Virus record (IMG/VR): IMGVR_UViG_3300044268_002704 | Location: 1-25,988 of that record | Reading direction: 5' to 3' (one strand) | DNA: 25,988 nucleotides | DNA from: a virus | Taxonomy: Duplodnaviria; Caudoviricetes | Part shown: positions 1-11,863 of the stretch, in pieces | How the letters are laid out: the number at the start of each line of letters is the position of its first letter | Position numbering within the stretch: position 1 is the first letter of the stretch | Program-made: the position numbers and the translations under genes | Notes under the pieces: model-generated | What the model saw: the letters and a program-made list of their open reading frames with translations, nothing else | Databases searched by the model: none | Told to the model about the DNA's origin: nothing

Positions 1-362
1 GGAAAGTCTATCCCCGCAGCTCCTTCTCTGGAAGGGAGTTTGATGTGGTGTGTAATGGGTGGCGAATGATGAACAGGGCCATAGATATGTTCTGGAAATA
101 ACTCGAGCCACGTTTTCAGCGTAGTGGTTTTTAACATCGGATAGGAGTTTCTTACAATAACAAACCGAGAATATTTTATGCCATCTCTAGGACTTGGTTT
201 TTGTTGTATCGCTCTTTTAAAAATTTCAGCACAACACGCATAGGATTTACCTGAACCGACAGGACCGATCAATCCTCTAACAAAACTTTTATCCTGTAGA
301 AACTTCCAGATCGTAGGCGATTTGCTAAAGTCAAGTTTGAGTCCTGGTATGTTATTCTGCAT
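1..362 (-). CDS. terL: Terminase large subunit, N-terminal part (runs off the window)
   Basis: Manual translation from ATG at 362: MQNNIPGLKLDFSKSPTIWKFLQDKSFVRGLIGPVGSGKSYACCAEIF...RFVIVRNSYPMLKTTT. Walker A GPVGSGKS; lies downstream of terS. Not in the ORF track. Confidence 0.92.
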   Translation of the reverse strand, partial: MQNNIPGLKLDFSKSPTIWKFLQDKSFVRGLIGPVGSGKSYACCAEIFKRAIQQKPSPRDGIKYSRFVIVRNSYPMLKTTTLKTWLELFPEHIYGPVHHSPPITHHIKLPSREGAAGIDF

Positions 363-1473
363 CTATGATACTCCTGAAGATTTGTTCTGCGATTTGTGGC
401 ACGATTGAGTTTCCGAGTGCTTTAATTCTGTTGGTTCTATCTGAGTGTAATTCATAGGATACCCCATTAGGAACTCCACGAAGTTTGGATTCAGTTTGCC
501 ACCAGGTTGCGGTGGGTTTTTCTCCTGCATTAAGTTTCCCACTATTGAGCTTCTGTTCTTCTTGCGAAGGATAAAACCCCCAGATTTTGTTCTCTCCACT
601 CTCTTTGATTGTTCCCCTCCTACTTCGCAACCTACTGTCGGTGTTGGATACATTGTTTCGTAACGGACTCTTGATGCTAAATTTGACATCTTCTTTTGAA
701 AATTTTTCTGGTCCATTTCCCTTGTTGTCTGCGGTGGTGTGCGATCCTCGTATTGAGCTGGTGTTGGATACATTGCCATTGTCTGTGGGTCTATTTGTTC
801 TCTCAGATTGGAGGGACGAGTTCTCCCTTTTCTGTGACCCTGTTGCAGTTTGAGTGTTCCCTCTTTGCTCCTTGGTGGTAGATGATCCATTGTGTTGGGA
901 GTCGCATACATGTGATTCCCCCAACTCCCTTGATCTCTCTTGTACATACTGGGAGCACCTTGATTCGCAGTTGCTGTTGGAGTGTGCAACAATCCAGACT
1001 CGGTTTCGTTGATGCCACGCACCGATGCCACTAGCTGGAATAACAAAACATTGGACTTTGAAACCTTCACTTTCCAAGTCATTGTGCACCTGTCGGAGGA
1101 CCATGCCGTCTTCGATGTTAATAATGCCTTGCACATTTTCCCCAATAACCCACCTTGGTTTAACCTCGGAAATGACTCGTAACATTTCTGGCCAGAGATA
1201 GCGGTCATCGTCTGTTCCCTCTCTCTTTCCCGCAACGGAGAAAGGTTGACAGGGGAATCCTCCTGAAATAATGGTAGCTGCACCAAAGTCTTTTCCATTA
1301 ACTTTCCTTATATCGTCTATGATCGGAACATCGCTCCAATGCTTTTTTAAAACTTTTTGACAAAATTCATCCTTTTCTATAAACCCTATTGTTTCAATTC
1401 CATTTCGTTCAGCACCTAAACTAAAACCTCCTATACCTGAAAACAGATCTAATAATTTATGATTTGTCCTCAC
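352..1473 (-). CDS. DNA (cytosine-5) methyltransferase, catalytic (alpha-type) polypeptide
   Basis: Motif I LDLFSGIGG, IV GGFPCQPFS, VI ENV, VIII HQRNRVW and X RIKALGNSIVPQ. No recognisable motif IX; the segment between VIII and X is low-complexity. Confidence 0.93.
   Translation of the reverse strand: MRTNHKLLDLFSGIGGFSLGAERNGIETIGFIEKDEFCQKVLKKHWSDVPIIDDIRKVNGKDFGAATIISGGFPCQPFSVAGKREGTDDDRYLWPEMLRVISEVKPRWVIGENVQGIINIEDGMVLRQVHNDLESEGFKVQCFVIPASGIGAWHQRNRVWIVAHSNSNCESRCSQYVQERSRELGESHVCDSQHNGSSTTKEQRGNTQTATGSQKRENSSLQSERTNRPTDNGNVSNTSSIRGSHTTADNKGNGPEKFSKEDVKFSIKSPLRNNVSNTDSRLRSRRGTIKESGENKIWGFYPSQEEQKLNSGKLNAGEKPTATWWQTESKLRGVPNGVSYELHSDRTNRIKALGNSIVPQIAEQIFRSIIDAE
363..1298 (-). CDS. 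Nested alternative-frame methyltransferase partner (beta-type) with motif IX and TRD-like repeats
   Basis: 311 codons open inside the MTase gene in another frame. RBS AAGGA 6 nt before the ATG. Motif IX-like LNPNFVEFLMGYPMNYT (444-494). Four units LLHTP/MYATP/MYPTP/MYPTP. Its stop TAG directly abuts the terL ATG. Confidence 0.8.
   Translation of the reverse strand: MEKTLVQLPLFQEDSPVNLSPLREREREQTMTAISGQKCYESFPRLNQGGLLGKMCKALLTSKTAWSSDRCTMTWKVKVSKSNVLLFQLVASVRGINETESGLLHTPTATANQGAPSMYKRDQGSWGNHMYATPNTMDHLPPRSKEGTLKLQQGHRKGRTRPSNLREQIDPQTMAMYPTPAQYEDRTPPQTTREMDQKNFQKKMSNLASRVRYETMYPTPTVGCEVGGEQSKRVERTKSGGFILRKKNRSSIVGNLMQEKNPPQPGGKLNPNFVEFLMGYPMNYTQIEPTELKHSETQSCHKSQNKSSGVS
640..775. repeat. 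16-bp exact direct repeat GGTGTTGGATACATTG (640-655, 760-775)
   Basis: Read directly; 120-bp period; encodes MYPTP in the nested frame. Confidence 0.9.
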
Positions 1474-5505: not shown

Positions 5506-6321
5506 ATGAGTATATTTAAAACAACAGAAGGGAAGGAACATAAGGGCAAATTTGTAGGCTACCTTCGAGTGTCCACCGAGGATCAGGATTGTATGCGACA
5601 GACCCATAGTATAAAAAAATATTTAAATGGCGGAGATTATACCCTTTCTTTTTATAAAGAAGAACCCATGTCTGGTGCAACCGATCCTTATACTCGTCCG
5701 CAACTCATGAAAGCAGTTGAGCATTGTCGAAAGCAGAAAGCAACACTTGTGTTTGCGGACTTAGAAAGGTTATGCCGAACCATGTGGATGACGTTACGAT
5801 TTTTAGATGAAACTATCAAACAAAATAGGATTAACTTTATTGTCTGTAACGACCCAAGTATTTCAGAAGATCCCATGCGGTTACACATGAAAGCGTTATT
5901 TTCTGAATGGGAACGTCAAAGAATATCAGAACGAACCAAAGCTACCCTCGATGCGTATCAAGAGCAAATTAAAACGCAAGGGTACTTTCGATCAAAAGAT
6001 AAAGTGATAAATAAAAAAGTAATCAAAGGTCGCAAGATAACAAAGTTAGGAACGCATAGTAAAATGGATAAAGCTAGACAAAAAGCAGGGGAGGTAACGA
6101 TGCAAAAAGCAGACACGTTTGCTCAAGAAATTGCTTTTCATTTAAATGATGCTTACACAAATTGCGTGTCTTTACATGAGATGAGTCACTATCTTAATGA
6201 ACGCAACGTCCCAACGCCGGGACAGCGTTGGAAAAAAAAAAGAGAAAACGCAAAGTGGTATCCATCGAGCGTACGAAATATGTTAAAGCGATTAAAAATA
6301 GGAGAGTATAATGAGAACTAA
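5506..6321 (+). CDS. Serine recombinase (resolvase catalytic domain plus short recombinase DNA-binding domain)
   Basis: GYLRVSTEDQ (catalytic Ser), SGA..RPQL, DLERL, ERQRISERTK and C-terminal LNERNVPTPG...WYPSSV. Confidence 0.92.
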   Translation: MSIFKTTEGKEHKGKFVGYLRVSTEDQDCMRQTHSIKKYLNGGDYTLSFYKEEPMSGATDPYTRPQLMKAVEHCRKQKATLVFADLERLCRTMWMTLRFLDETIKQNRINFIVCNDPSISEDPMRLHMKALFSEWERQRISERTKATLDAYQEQIKTQGYFRSKDKVINKKVIKGRKITKLGTHSKMDKARQKAGEVTMQKADTFAQEIAFHLNDAYTNCVSLHEMSHYLNERNVPTPGQRWKKKRENAKWYPSSVRNMLKRLKIGEYNEN

Positions 6322-6397
6322 TTATGCACCCCCCCCCGAAAATCGTTGGTATCTGCGGGTCTCAGCACCAATGTTCTCAGCCTACGGGAGAATATAA
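6311..6397 (+). CDS. Candidate 28-aa peptide MRTNYAPPPENRWYLRVSAPMFSAYGRI
   Basis: RBS AGGAG upstream; spans a C9 tract; TAATG-coupled to the next gene. Confidence 0.4.
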   Translation: MRTNYAPPPENRWYLRVSAPMFSAYGRI

Positions 6398-6864
6398 TGA
6401 TCACTAACTTTCCTCATGGTAAAATCTGGGCAGAATATCTCTCCGATAAATATGCCAATGTTGGTTCTGAATCGGATGTATTATGTTCGGATAAATTTAA
6501 TACGGATGAAAAAAAAATACTAAAATATTTTACGCAACCGACAAAATTTACCACTTGGTTATTCATAATGAATAGTCATTATCAAAATATTCCTATTACT
6601 CGAAGAGCAATTGAAAAGCATACAGGCAATTCTCAATCGACAGTTTTACGATGTTGTAATGAATGTGCGGAAGCAGGATACATCATTAATACCCGTGAGC
6701 TTTCTGAGAATATTACGACCTACATTGTGTCGGAACACATGGTTGCGTTATGGGAAAAATATATTGATTATCGACTCGATCACATTTTAAAATTTGAAAT
6801 GGATTTATCGATTCGCTTACGCAGAACGGAACAAACAGTATTCAAAAAGAAGATAGTAAAATGA
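6397..6864 (+). CDS. Putative winged-helix DNA-binding protein
   Basis: ITRRAIEKHTGNSQSTVLRCCNECAEAGYI is HTH-like. Start set at ATG 6397 (RBS GGGAG) rather than TTG 6346. Confidence 0.65.
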   Translation: MITNFPHGKIWAEYLSDKYANVGSESDVLCSDKFNTDEKKILKYFTQPTKFTTWLFIMNSHYQNIPITRRAIEKHTGNSQSTVLRCCNECAEAGYIINTRELSENITTYIVSEHMVALWEKYIDYRLDHILKFEMDLSIRLRRTEQTVFKKKIVK

Positions 6865-6901
6865 TATTTATTTACTACAATAAAACTTAGGGAGATTATT
6901 T

Positions 6902-7231
6902 ATGACACTATCAGATAAATATATTCAAGCTTTAATTCAAGCAGAAAAAAAATCAAAGAGTCAACAAAATGACGAGGACTATTTGAAGTATAAAAAATTT
7001 ATGCGTTCGAGTTCTCGGATTACGATTCCGTTAACCAACTTAAAAAATCTAAAAACCGCTCATGAAATGATAGGATTACTGCATGAAGAATTAGGCAGTA
7101 TCCTTCAGTCAAAGCACTCTGTGTTTGAGAAGATATTCATGGCGGGATATTCGGTAACTGTTTGCGGTCAACACTTAAAACAAGCGGCAGATCCGAAAAA
7201 TTTAGGGGTACATTTTAAGGGGACACGTTAG
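6902..7231 (+). CDS. Hypothetical protein
   Basis: 109 aa; RBS AGGGAG. Confidence 0.75.
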   Translation: MTLSDKYIQALIQAEKKSKSQQNDEDYLKYKKFMRSSSRITIPLTNLKNLKTAHEMIGLLHEELGSILQSKHSVFEKIFMAGYSVTVCGQHLKQAADPKNLGVHFKGTR

Positions 7232-7250
7232 TTTTATGAGACAACGACAA

Positions 7251-7297
7251 CCACAACATATAGTGTATCGTAACATTTTTCCCTCTAGGTTTTGTAT
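7251..7297. promoter_or_regulatory. Tandem NrdR-box-like motifs
   Basis: CCACAACATATAGTGT (7251-7266, good match to acaCwAtATaTwGtgt) and a weaker CCTCTAGGTTTTGTAT starting 31 bp later. Confidence 0.5.
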
Positions 7298-7326
7298 AGT
7301 ACCATTTAACCAGAAAGGAGCAGTCT

Positions 7327-7614
7327 ATGCCTAACAAACCAAACATATCTATTTTTTCTAACCAAAAAGTAACGCATAATATATATTACGAATCGTCAGT
7401 AAAAAACACTAGATATAGTATTTTAGTTGAATGGTTGATGAAACTTTTTAAACACCTAAAATCCTATTACACTCTAGCACAGAATACAAGAATTTTTAAT
7501 TATCTATTTGAGTGTTTCACTCTTTTGGGATTGTTTGTATTTTTTTATTTTCTTACATTTTTTGTCTGTGCTTTTGACGATGCGTGTAGTCGTTTTTATT
7601 TGGGAGGTCTATAA
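7327..7614 (+). CDS. Small membrane protein
   Basis: RBS AGAAAGGAG; C-terminal hydrophobic helix; TAATG overlap with the exonuclease gene. Confidence 0.65.
   Translation: MPNKPNISIFSNQKVTHNIYYESSVKNTRYSILVEWLMKLFKHLKSYYTLAQNTRIFNYLFECFTLLGLFVFFYFLTFFVCAFDDACSRFYLGGL
7369..7396. other. dif-like XerC/XerD recombination site
   Basis: GTAACGCATAA-TATATA-TTACGAATCGT versus E. coli dif GGTGCGCATAA-TGTATA-TTATGTTAAAT; 11-6-11 layout with a degenerate XerD arm. Confidence 0.6.
7406..7421. promoter_or_regulatory. NrdR-box-like motif
   Basis: ACACTAGATATAGTAT matches all core positions of the consensus (CwAnATnTwG). Confidence 0.55.
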
Positions 7615-11035: not shown

Positions 11036-11224
11036 TTATCCCTTTATAAAGATTGATATTAAAGCTACAATGACCGCAATGGTATTACCCATAATAACTG
11101 TTTCTAATCTTTTGATTCTGGATTTTAGATCTGAAATATTTTCATGAATATTGTTATATCTTTCCAGACACACTTCCTCATGCTTGGATATCCTTGCTTC
11201 ATTCTTATCTGCTTTAGTTACCAT
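11036..11224 (-). CDS. Small coiled-coil and transmembrane protein
   Basis: HEEVCLERY...IKRLE followed by a TM helix; RBS GAGGA/AGGA. Confidence 0.75.
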   Translation of the reverse strand: MVTKADKNEARISKHEEVCLERYNNIHENISDLKSRIKRLETVIMGNTIAVIVALISIFIKG

Positions 11225-11247: not shown

Positions 11248-11480
11248 CTATTTTTTTCCTAACAAATCTTTGTCCGCTTTTCTCGCTCCACCTTTACCTG
11301 ATACAAAAGATTTTACTCTTCCCATTGCCCAGCTGTGTGCTGAAGTTTTCGGTCTTGATCCTGATGAATAGTAAGCTCCAAGTGTATCCCCCAAAGGGGT
11401 CACAGTCCTCTCCTGTATACTTTATTTAAAGTGCTTTCACTAAATCTTGAAGCTCCTGGTATTTTTGAATATTTACTCAT
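11248..11480 (-). other. 69-aa basic protein gene interrupted by a 23-nt hairpin insert (recoded gene or pseudogene)
   Basis: Removing 23 nt joins MSKYSKIPGASRFSESTLNKVYRRGL to GAYYSSGSRPKTSAHSWAMGRVKSFVSGKGGARKADKDLLGKK in exactly 70 codons. RBS AAGGAG; ATGA overlap upstream. Confidence 0.8.
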
Positions 11481-11587
11481 TTCTTTTTACTCCTTAATTT
11501 TTTAAGATCTGCTCCTGTTATTTTGTTTCTGGGTTTAGCAACCGCAGCTAACTTTTTTTGTTTTGGACTGTATTTACTAAATGGCAT
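11477..11587 (-). CDS. 36-aa Lys-rich microprotein
   Basis: MPFSKYSPKQKKLAAVAKPRNKITGADLKKLRSKKK; RBS AAGGA. Confidence 0.75.
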   Translation of the reverse strand: MPFSKYSPKQKKLAAVAKPRNKITGADLKKLRSKKK

Positions 11588-11591
11588 TTTA

Positions 11592-11792
11592 TTATCCTTT
11601 ACTTCGTTGTTTACTAATTTTATCCATCATTGCTTTTGTAAGTTTCCCTTGCCTATAAAGTCTAGCAGTTCTCTTAATCTCTGCTTCTCTAGCTTTAGGA
11701 TTCTTTGCACCAGATACATATTTCTTTGGTACACCACCCTTAGTTTTAGGCACAGGATCAAACTTACGCATCAATGTTCTTTTGTGTCGCAT
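11592..11792 (-). CDS. 66-aa highly basic protein
   Basis: Lys/Arg-rich, VPKKYVSG; TAATG overlap upstream. Confidence 0.75.
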   Translation of the reverse strand: MRHKRTLMRKFDPVPKTKGGVPKKYVSGAKNPKAREAEIKRTARLYRQGKLTKAMMDKISKQRSKG

Positions 11793-11851
11793 TATTTTTT
11801 CTTCTTTTTTTTATCAGTCATTTTCTTTTTTTTTCCATAATGTCCTGGCAT
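11792..11851 (-). CDS. 19-aa poly-Lys microprotein
   Basis: MPGHYGKKKKMTDKKKKKK; RBS AAAGGAG; stop overlaps the next start. Confidence 0.65.
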   Translation of the reverse strand: MPGHYGKKKKMTDKKKKKK

Positions 11852-11863
11852 AAGAACTCCTTT

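What the first reader, a model, noticed from the sequence alone, without database searches (positions are those of the whole stretch)
11380..11406. Candidate programmed ribosomal bypass: 23-nt stop-containing hairpin inside a small basic gene
Seen: the mRNA reads AGG AGA GGA CUG UGA CCCC UUUG GGGG AUACA CUU GGA GCU UAC. Codon 26 (CUG, Leu) is followed at once by a UGA stop. The last two bases of that codon and the stop form the 5' arm of a hairpin, UGUG-A-CCCC(UUUG)GGGG-A-UACA. A second Leu codon (CUU) lies 23 nt downstream, just after a G-rich SD-like stretch. Moving from CUG to CUU restores an otherwise undamaged 69-aa frame (...VYRRGL/GAYYSSGSRP...). At DNA level this is a 20-bp GC-rich insert between ACT direct repeats. 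Established: T4 gene 60 bypassing uses a take-off codon, an adjacent stop, a UUCG-capped hairpin, a mini-SD and a matching landing codon; yeast mitochondrial byps are similar short hairpin inserts. Inference: this is a minimal phage bypass element, or a tiny mobile hairpin with a 3-bp target duplication that inactivated the gene. Caveats: the two codons are synonymous, not identical; only one copy was found; an assembly artefact cannot be excluded.
Basis: partly seen in the sequence, partly recalled or inferred. Interest (0 to 1): 0.85.

Follow-up and report, generated by a model that had tools for sequence, protein, structure and literature searches.

The report
Ribosome-hop site in marine phage gene
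A small conserved gene of marine bacterial viruses is broken at one codon by a stop and a 23-letter hairpin insert, related viruses are broken at the same codon by 24, 2 or 1 extra letters while keeping the rest of the gene intact, and the ribosome likely hops over each break, which would make this a natural series running from frameshifting to long-range bypassing.

Summary
The gene is a DUF5824 protein of a marine podovirus-like phage; most relatives run unbroken through RRGL|GAYY. The insert is no singleton: 23- or 24-nt stop+hairpin inserts occur in 13 IMG/VR contigs and 6 metagenome contigs, and the same codon carries +2-nt (5 contigs, 4 alleles) and +1-nt (1 contig) breaks. Of 14 distinct broken alleles, 13 have a Shine-Dalgarno-like GGAGG/AGGAG just before Leu26, against 0 of 91 unbroken ones; downstream halves stay under purifying selection (median pN/pS 0.14). 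The +24, +2 and +1 alleles have no start codon for the second half. Best reading (0.75): peptidyl-tRNA-Leu leaves CUN at a slow A-site codon and re-pairs 23-24 (or 2, 1) nt downstream, combining T4 gene 60 signals with RF2-type geometry. No product, ribosome or read-level evidence. No homing nuclease found in incomplete genomes. Not found in the searched literature; the scan noted a different micro-gap case on other DNA. New variant of programmed bypassing.

The parts
11403..11480 (-). First half of a DUF5824 gene, codons 1-26; its ATG overlaps the stop of the upstream small basic ORF and follows an AAGGAG at 11495-11490
   Evidence: sequence; 72% match to residues 1-29 of unbroken homologue P0002
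11406..11414 (-). Internal Shine-Dalgarno-like sequence in the Arg-Arg-Gly codons (AGG AGA GGA) just 5' of the take-off codon
   Evidence: GGAGG/AGGAG in these 9 nt in 13 of 14 broken alleles and 0 of 91 unbroken alleles; function inferred
11403..11405 (-). Predicted take-off codon CUG (Leu26)
   Evidence: CUN in 14 of 14 broken alleles, 51 of 91 unbroken
11400..11402 (-). A-site stop UGA, followed by C
   Evidence: TGA or TAA in every 23/24-nt allele, TAG in every +2 allele
11388..11399 (-). CCCC(UUUG)GGGG top stem-loop; UUCG loop in related alleles, 5-6 pairs in others; its G arm doubles as a candidate mini-SD 4-7 nt before the landing codon
11380..11382 (-). Predicted landing codon CUU
   Evidence: CTT or CTA directly before Gly27 in all 23/24-nt alleles
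11248..11379 (-). Second half of the DUF5824 gene, 43 codons and stop
   Evidence: PF19141 E 5e-5 (23.9 bits, under the 25-bit cut-off for this piece), phrog_28338 E 2.9e-10, 221 homologues

Best explanation
The DUF5824 gene is broken after Leu26 by a stop and a 20-nt gap, and ribosomes likely restore it by programmed bypassing. Predicted steps: the anti-SD of the translating ribosome pairs with the SD-like Arg-Arg-Gly codons while CUG sits in the P site and UGA in the A site; the C:G hairpin forms in the empty A site and holds off release factor; peptidyl-tRNA-Leu lets go, the ribosome slides, and the tRNA re-pairs at CUU 23 nt on, helped by the G run, giving the normal 69-aa protein; ribosomes that terminate give a 26-aa piece. 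The same SD-CUN-slow-codon core would drive the +24 hop, the +2 slip (CUU to UUA at UAG) and the +1 slip (CUU to UUU) seen in relatives. Shown: anatomy, recurrence, conservation, SD association, lateral transfer. Inferred: every ribosomal step, and the purpose (most likely lowering or conditioning output of the full protein, about 0.55; shielding the conserved site from a nuclease, about 0.25; tolerated passenger, about 0.2).
For: Unbroken homologues are continuous at this codon: 150 of 172 parsed loci. With no hairpin assumed, 12 of 12 IMG/VR hits with 3-33 extra nt carry the 23/24-nt hairpin. The 24-nt allele is in frame with two stops and has no start codon for the second half, so neither one frameshift nor re-initiation can express it. 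Five contigs (4 alleles, 7-29 nt but 1-5 aa apart over 168 nt) have +2 nt, all CTT TA GGT, and none has a downstream-frame start; 1-2 nt cannot be spliced out (established knowledge). SD-like motif 13 of 14 vs 0 of 91, Arg24 = AGG 12 of 14 vs 1 of 91; 12 of 14 have GAGG ending 3 nt before CUN, the spacing given for +1 shifts in PMC5009743. Second-half pN/pS median 0.14 over 64 pairs of +2/+23 alleles vs 0.19 over 1792 unbroken pairs. CTG TGA to CTA TAA keeps Leu and stop but turns the overlapping GTG into ATA. The predicted fold has one helix over residues 15-31, through the junction. Gene 60 homologues show the same tip (CC-UUCG-GG, UUUG variants, extra C:G pair, UGA stops, gaps as short as 20 nt).
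Against: No protein, ribosome-profiling or raw-read evidence. Take-off/landing pairs (CUG/CUU, CUA/CUU, CUG/CUA, CUU/CUA) mostly cross the purine/pyrimidine wobble boundary, whereas gene 60 homologues keep G/A or U/C pairs; this needs a four-way-wobble tRNA-Leu or two-of-three pairing, and the host is unknown. A cognate CUU lies inside the hairpin at +9/+10 in all five long types and could cause wrong landing. The window's own SD is the weakest (AGGAG, 4-nt spacer; -7.4 kcal/mol, within the range of unbroken alleles). The base before both Leu codons covaries (ACT/ACT vs TCT/TCT), which bypassing does not require. The alleles are related, so 13 of 14 is not 14 independent events, and the 91 unbroken alleles are the top hits of two searches, not a random sample. 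The 24-nt and +1 types are each one allele, so selection after acquisition is untested for them.
Confidence: 0.75

Rival explanations
1. Split gene: translation ends at UGA and restarts at the overlapping GUG (GUGA), using the SD-like codons as a ribosome-binding site, giving a 26-aa and a 51-aa chain that assemble.
For: SD and GTG are 5-6 nt apart in the window, L007 and L008 types; the second frame is open through the insert in all 23-nt alleles; gene callers call it (P0003, P0004, P0010, P0061).
Against: Four alleles have ATA there; the +24, +2 and +1 alleles have no start codon in that frame; +2 and +23 alleles interleave in one clade; the cut would fall inside a predicted helix; a G:C hairpin right after a start codon would hinder initiation (established knowledge).
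Confidence: 0.1
2. A -1 frameshift (or a +2 slip in every allele) reads through the 23-nt insert and adds about 8 residues; in +2 alleles it adds one.
For: +23 and +2 are the same frame class; the insert frame has no stop in 23-nt alleles; G runs precede Leu26 in +2 alleles.
Against: In the window neither the -1 codon (ACU) nor the +2 codon (GUG) can take tRNA-Leu; SD spacing for -1 shifts is 9-14 nt, not 3 (PMC5009743); fails for the 24-nt and +1 alleles; a Pro/Gly insert would break helix 15-31.
Confidence: 0.05
3. The 23 nt are removed from the RNA or DNA (mini-intron, slippage between 3-nt repeats at the hairpin base, or an att site of the phage's serine recombinase).
For: 3-nt direct repeats covary (ACT/ACT, TCT/TCT); a serine recombinase lies at 5506-6321.
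Against: Cannot explain +2 and +1 alleles; no unbroken allele keeps the SD-type flank that precise loss would leave (0 of 91); the recombinase is also in 4 of 8 records with unbroken genes; no Rfam match in the window; bulge-helix-bulge geometry does not fit (my inspection).
Confidence: 0.05
4. Dead gene: a small mobile hairpin or indels knocked out a dispensable gene.
For: Only about 3% of the family's IMG/VR contigs are broken (19 found, against 503 confirmed relatives in the scanned part); the protein's role is unknown.
Against: Purifying selection on the second half equal to unbroken genes; four different breaks at one codon; codon changes that build an SD; the 14-base hairpin motif hit this gene in 10 of 14 IMG/VR matches and no second interrupted gene.
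Confidence: 0.05

Closest known systems
Phage T4 gene 60 bypass and its MobA-element homologues (Manning and Atkins, bioRxiv 10.1101/2022.08.31.505936)
   Same: Take-off codon, adjacent stop, CC-UUCG/UUUG-GG tip, G-rich triplet 5-7 nt before a synonymous landing codon, a hidden cognate codon in the 5' gap, lateral spread at one fixed site.
   Different: Not a topoisomerase gene; no linked nuclease found; Leu instead of Gly/Asp; 23-24 nt instead of mostly 50; only 25 residues of nascent chain; a strong SD 5' of take-off; interchangeable with +2 and +1 alleles.
Release factor 2 (prfB) +1 frameshift
   Same: SD 3 nt before a CUN codon followed by a stop; the 24-nt allele reads CUU UGA C and the +1 allele CUU U.
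   Different: Productive landing is at +23, +24 or +2 in 13 of 14 alleles; the stop varies (UGA, UAA, UAG), so it is not an RF2-specific sensor; the gene is not a release factor.
Streptomyces phage Hau3 terminase 10-nt bypass (PMC10732093)
   Same: Short phage coding gap in a conserved protein junction, with an internal SD 5' of the gap.
   Different: Triggered there by the rare UUA codon; here by a stop plus a hairpin inside the gap.
Magnusiomyces mitochondrial byps
   Same: Short GC-rich hairpin inserts with relaxed take-off/landing matching.
   Different: byps are 27-55 nt, use an unassigned sense codon, no SD, and occur 81 times in 12 genes; this occurs at one codon of one phage gene family.

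Membership tests
T4 gene 60-type bypass | Stop or hungry codon right after the take-off codon | tested here: met
   TGA/TAA in all five long types
T4 gene 60-type bypass | Take-off stem-loop with CC-UUCG-GG-like tip | tested here: met
   4-6 pair top stem in 5 of 5 types; lower stem only in 2 of 5 as first described
T4 gene 60-type bypass | Take-off and landing codons read by one tRNA (identical or G/A, U/C wobble) | tested here: inconclusive
   Both CUN, but 4 of 5 types cross the wobble boundary; host tRNA set unknown; a SAR116 single-cell genome showed Leu GAG, TAA, CAA among 7 long tRNAs of 28
T4 gene 60-type bypass | Mini-SD 5-7 nt before landing | tested here: met
   GGG at 5-7 nt in 5 of 5 types, but it is the hairpin's own 3' arm, so not independent
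T4 gene 60-type bypass | No premature landing triplet in the scanned gap | tested here: inconclusive
   None 3' of the hairpin; one CUU inside it; T4 also hides one in the 5' gap (abstract)
T4 gene 60-type bypass | Nascent-peptide signal and full-length product shown | not testable with these tools
   needs reporter and MS
MobA element | Topoisomerase host gene with linked homing endonuclease | tested here: not met
   DUF5824 gene; 0 of 5 records each for PF01844, PF13392, PF01541 (34-88% complete); no gene exclusive to broken-allele genomes
RF2-type +1 frameshift | SD 3 nt before the shift codon | tested here: met
   12 of 14 alleles; window and L007 have AGGAG at 4 nt
RF2-type +1 frameshift | CUU_U site with productive +1 frame | tested here: not met
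   Window has CUG_U and needs +23; only L362 is +1, with UGG rather than a stop
Mitochondrial byps | Unassigned codon in the A site; many copies in many genes | tested here: not met
   stop codon; the only frame-changing split found in six records was this gene
Miniature mobile hairpin with target duplication | Copies at many unrelated sites | tested here: not met
   exact 20-mer 4 of 4 in this gene; relaxed motif 10 of 14 in this gene, 4 in unrelated contexts with no interrupted gene evident

The most novel reading that the evidence does not exclude
One codon of a widespread marine phage gene is an evolving recoding dial: a fixed SD-CUN-slow-codon core is kept while the jump switches between +1, +2, +23 and +24, and the cassette moves between phages with its flanks. 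Selection would then be for recoding itself (dosage or sensing of host termination capacity), and this would be a natural case where frameshifting and bypassing interconvert, including natural programmed +2 slips.
Probability: 0.4. Interest if true: 0.93.

Novelty: new variant of a known kind. Interest (0 to 1): 0.84.

Why it matters
Natural programmed bypassing is known from very few systems, and reviews note that shorter or regulatory cases have long been expected (PMC5009743). A 23-nt cassette in a 69-codon gene is a minimal test object, and the natural +1, +2, +23, +24 series in one context allows direct tests of what decides slip versus hop, of SD push versus A-site hairpin, and of how bypass elements arise. 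It also shows a class of phage genes that annotation splits or miscalls.

Tried and rejected
Rfam and tRNA scans of the window: nothing; no tRNA in five related records. Terminator reading: no terminator-like call at the hairpin, which lacks a U run. General search for SD-codon-stop-hairpin in other genes: 97 loci, 77 distinct contexts, 4 of them this gene; a loose open-frame filter flagged 23 others, which I did not test against homologues, so a wider family is neither shown nor excluded. Homing nuclease: none found, records incomplete. RNA contigs: 4 of 6 RNA runs laid; one contig (depth 2.1) covers 11363-11620 with the gap present but has only 20 letters on one side, so it does not count as bridging; no joints seen; no read-level test of excision was obtained. 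Fourteen DNA runs hold 98-100% of sampled words but are marked as possible sources. Function of DUF5824: no solved-structure relative, no Foldseek match at E 0.001 or better, Atlas returns only DUF5824 clusters; the wide structural search was not run. GTDB scan: 3 hits, all unbroken. Inserts longer than 33 nt were not scanned for by pattern. Hairpin z-scores against same-composition shuffles are not significant.

Full report
Observation. On the minus strand a gene starts at 11480, reaches CTG (codon 26, 11405-11403) and stops at TGA; 23 nt after CTG a CTT precedes 43 more codons. The gap folds as described (-9.8 kcal/mol). The fold is not significant against shuffles of the same letters (17 of 200), but CCCC-N4-GGGG is unique in this A+T-rich window and absent from 100 shuffles.

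Setting. The window is a whole 26-kb virus record, 83% complete: capsid, tail, internal virion proteins, holin, lysozyme, replication initiator, serine recombinase. The capsid's best named relative is Methylophilales phage MEP301 at 54%; the stretch is held by seawater runs. The host is unknown. The gene lies among small basic ORFs between tail and lysis genes. Its second half matches DUF5824 and phrog_28338, with 221 homologues, also in Pelagibacter and Prochlorococcus phages and three alphaproteobacterial single-cell genomes.

Recurrence. 150 of 172 parsed loci are continuous at RRGL|GAYY. The exact insert is in 4 other contigs. A gene-anchored hairpin pattern gave 13 family hits of 24 in IMG/VR and 6 of 43 in metagenomes. 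A pattern assuming no hairpin found 12 contigs with 3-33 extra nt, and all 12 carry the 23- or 24-nt hairpin. Five long types exist: CTG TGA/UUUG/CTT (window), CTG TGA/UUCG/CTT, CTA TAA/UUCG/CTT, CTG TGA/longer stem/CTA, and a 24-nt type CTT TGA/5-pair stem/TAA CTA. Only the top C:G stem is constant.

Short alleles at the same codon. A scan for 1-2 extra nt gave 6 contigs: five with CTT TA GGT (+2; four distinct alleles, 7-29 nt but 1-5 aa apart over 168 nt) and one with CTT T GGC (+1). The +1 contig is single and could be an error, though it too has AGG AGG.

Upstream signal. GGAGG or AGGAG lies in the 9 nt before Leu26 in 13 of 14 distinct broken alleles and 0 of 91 unbroken; Arg24 is AGG in 12 of 14 against 1 of 91. 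Twelve have GAGG ending 3 nt before the Leu codon; the window and L007 have AGGAG at 4 nt. PMC5009743 gives 3 nt for +1 and 9-14 nt for -1 SD-stimulated shifts, CUU_U as the RF2 site, and CUU-to-UUA re-pairing by an unmodified-U34 tRNA-Leu in yeast Ty1. The alleles share ancestry, so the Fisher value overstates the case, and the unbroken set is the top of two searches.

Selection and history. Second-half pN/pS has median 0.14 among +2/+23 pairs (64 pairs) and 0.19 among unbroken pairs (1792). On a tree of the 120 nt outside the junction flanks, four +2 and six +23 alleles form one clade (support 0.97) with no unbroken member and interleave; L008/L009, L087 and L362 each group with unbroken alleles (a short alignment, to be read with care). 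L087 differs from L005 at 2 of 33 flank positions but 52 of 135 outside, and from its five unbroken sisters at 7-11 of 33 and 18-23 of 135: the cassette moved with its flanks. A carrier with a 65%-identical capsid has the insert while a 93%-identical relative does not. Roughly 3% of family contigs are broken (19 against 503 confirmed in the scanned part).

Mechanism. Re-initiation at the overlapping GTG fits three long types but not the ATA type, and the +24, +2 and +1 alleles have no start codon in the second frame. One frameshift cannot express the in-frame, two-stop 24-nt allele. Splicing or DNA excision cannot explain 1-2 nt. Forward re-pairing of peptidyl-tRNA-Leu explains all: CUN to CUN at +23/+24, CUU to UUA at +2, CUU to UUU at +1. 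The AlphaFold2 model of an unbroken homologue (pLDDT 86.7) has one helix across residues 15-31, so an exact join is plausible as a requirement.

Purpose. Not shown. A clade that changes jump length but was not seen to revert suggests selection for recoding, such as lower or conditional output; varying stops argue against an RF2-specific sensor. Protection from a nuclease, as for T4, fits the co-converted flanks, but no HNH or GIY-YIG gene was found in the incomplete records searched and no gene is exclusive to carriers. DUF5824 has no structural match.

Comparison and novelty. It works like gene 60 bypassing and shares its stop, hairpin tip and mini-SD but is not a MobA element. It shares RF2's upstream geometry and Hau3's SD-before-gap layout. 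Papers seen: bioRxiv 10.1101/2022.08.31.505936, abstract, introduction, section 10 and discussion (supplements not seen; the abstract places all its cases in topoisomerase genes); PMC5009743 and PMC10732093, passages; bioRxiv 10.1101/2024.12.09.627546, abstract. Seven searches showed no report of this case and no paper naming DUF5824; most subscription journals are not in the library. Verdict: real, most likely programmed, a new variant of bypassing; interest 0.84.

Noticed in passing
window 11248-11863, minus strand: A run of very small Lys/Arg-rich ORFs (about 19, 66, 36 and 69 aa) with overlapping stop/start codons between tail and lysis genes; the set is shuffled in order among relatives. 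Function unknown; possibly nucleic-acid-binding.
   Followed up: partly
window 5506-6321, plus strand: Small serine recombinase (resolvase plus partial recombinase domain) present in 6 of 10 related records, broken and unbroken alike; may mark a temperate life style.
   Followed up: partly
window 352-1473, minus strand: C-5 cytosine methylase next to the terminase genes; found in G002 but not in the other eight records compared, G001 having an unrelated ORF at that place.
   Followed up: no
window 6346-7614, plus strand: Three ORFs with no Pfam/PHROG match of note between the recombinase and the RecE-like gene, shared only with G002.
   Followed up: no
window 11036-11224, minus strand: 62-aa ORF with a weak, sub-threshold XhlA-family match (E 0.0017) ahead of the holin; likely a lysis membrane protein.
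   Followed up: no
L362 (IMG/VR 3300030380_005139): +1 allele with AGG AGG GGA CTT TGG: RF2-like slip site with a Trp codon instead of a stop; one contig, no close sister among fetched loci.
   Followed up: partly
L183-L279: 23 non-DUF5824 contexts with SD-codon-stop-C/G hairpin and open frames on both sides, mostly in G+C-rich phages and probably chance; not tested against homologues.
   Followed up: no
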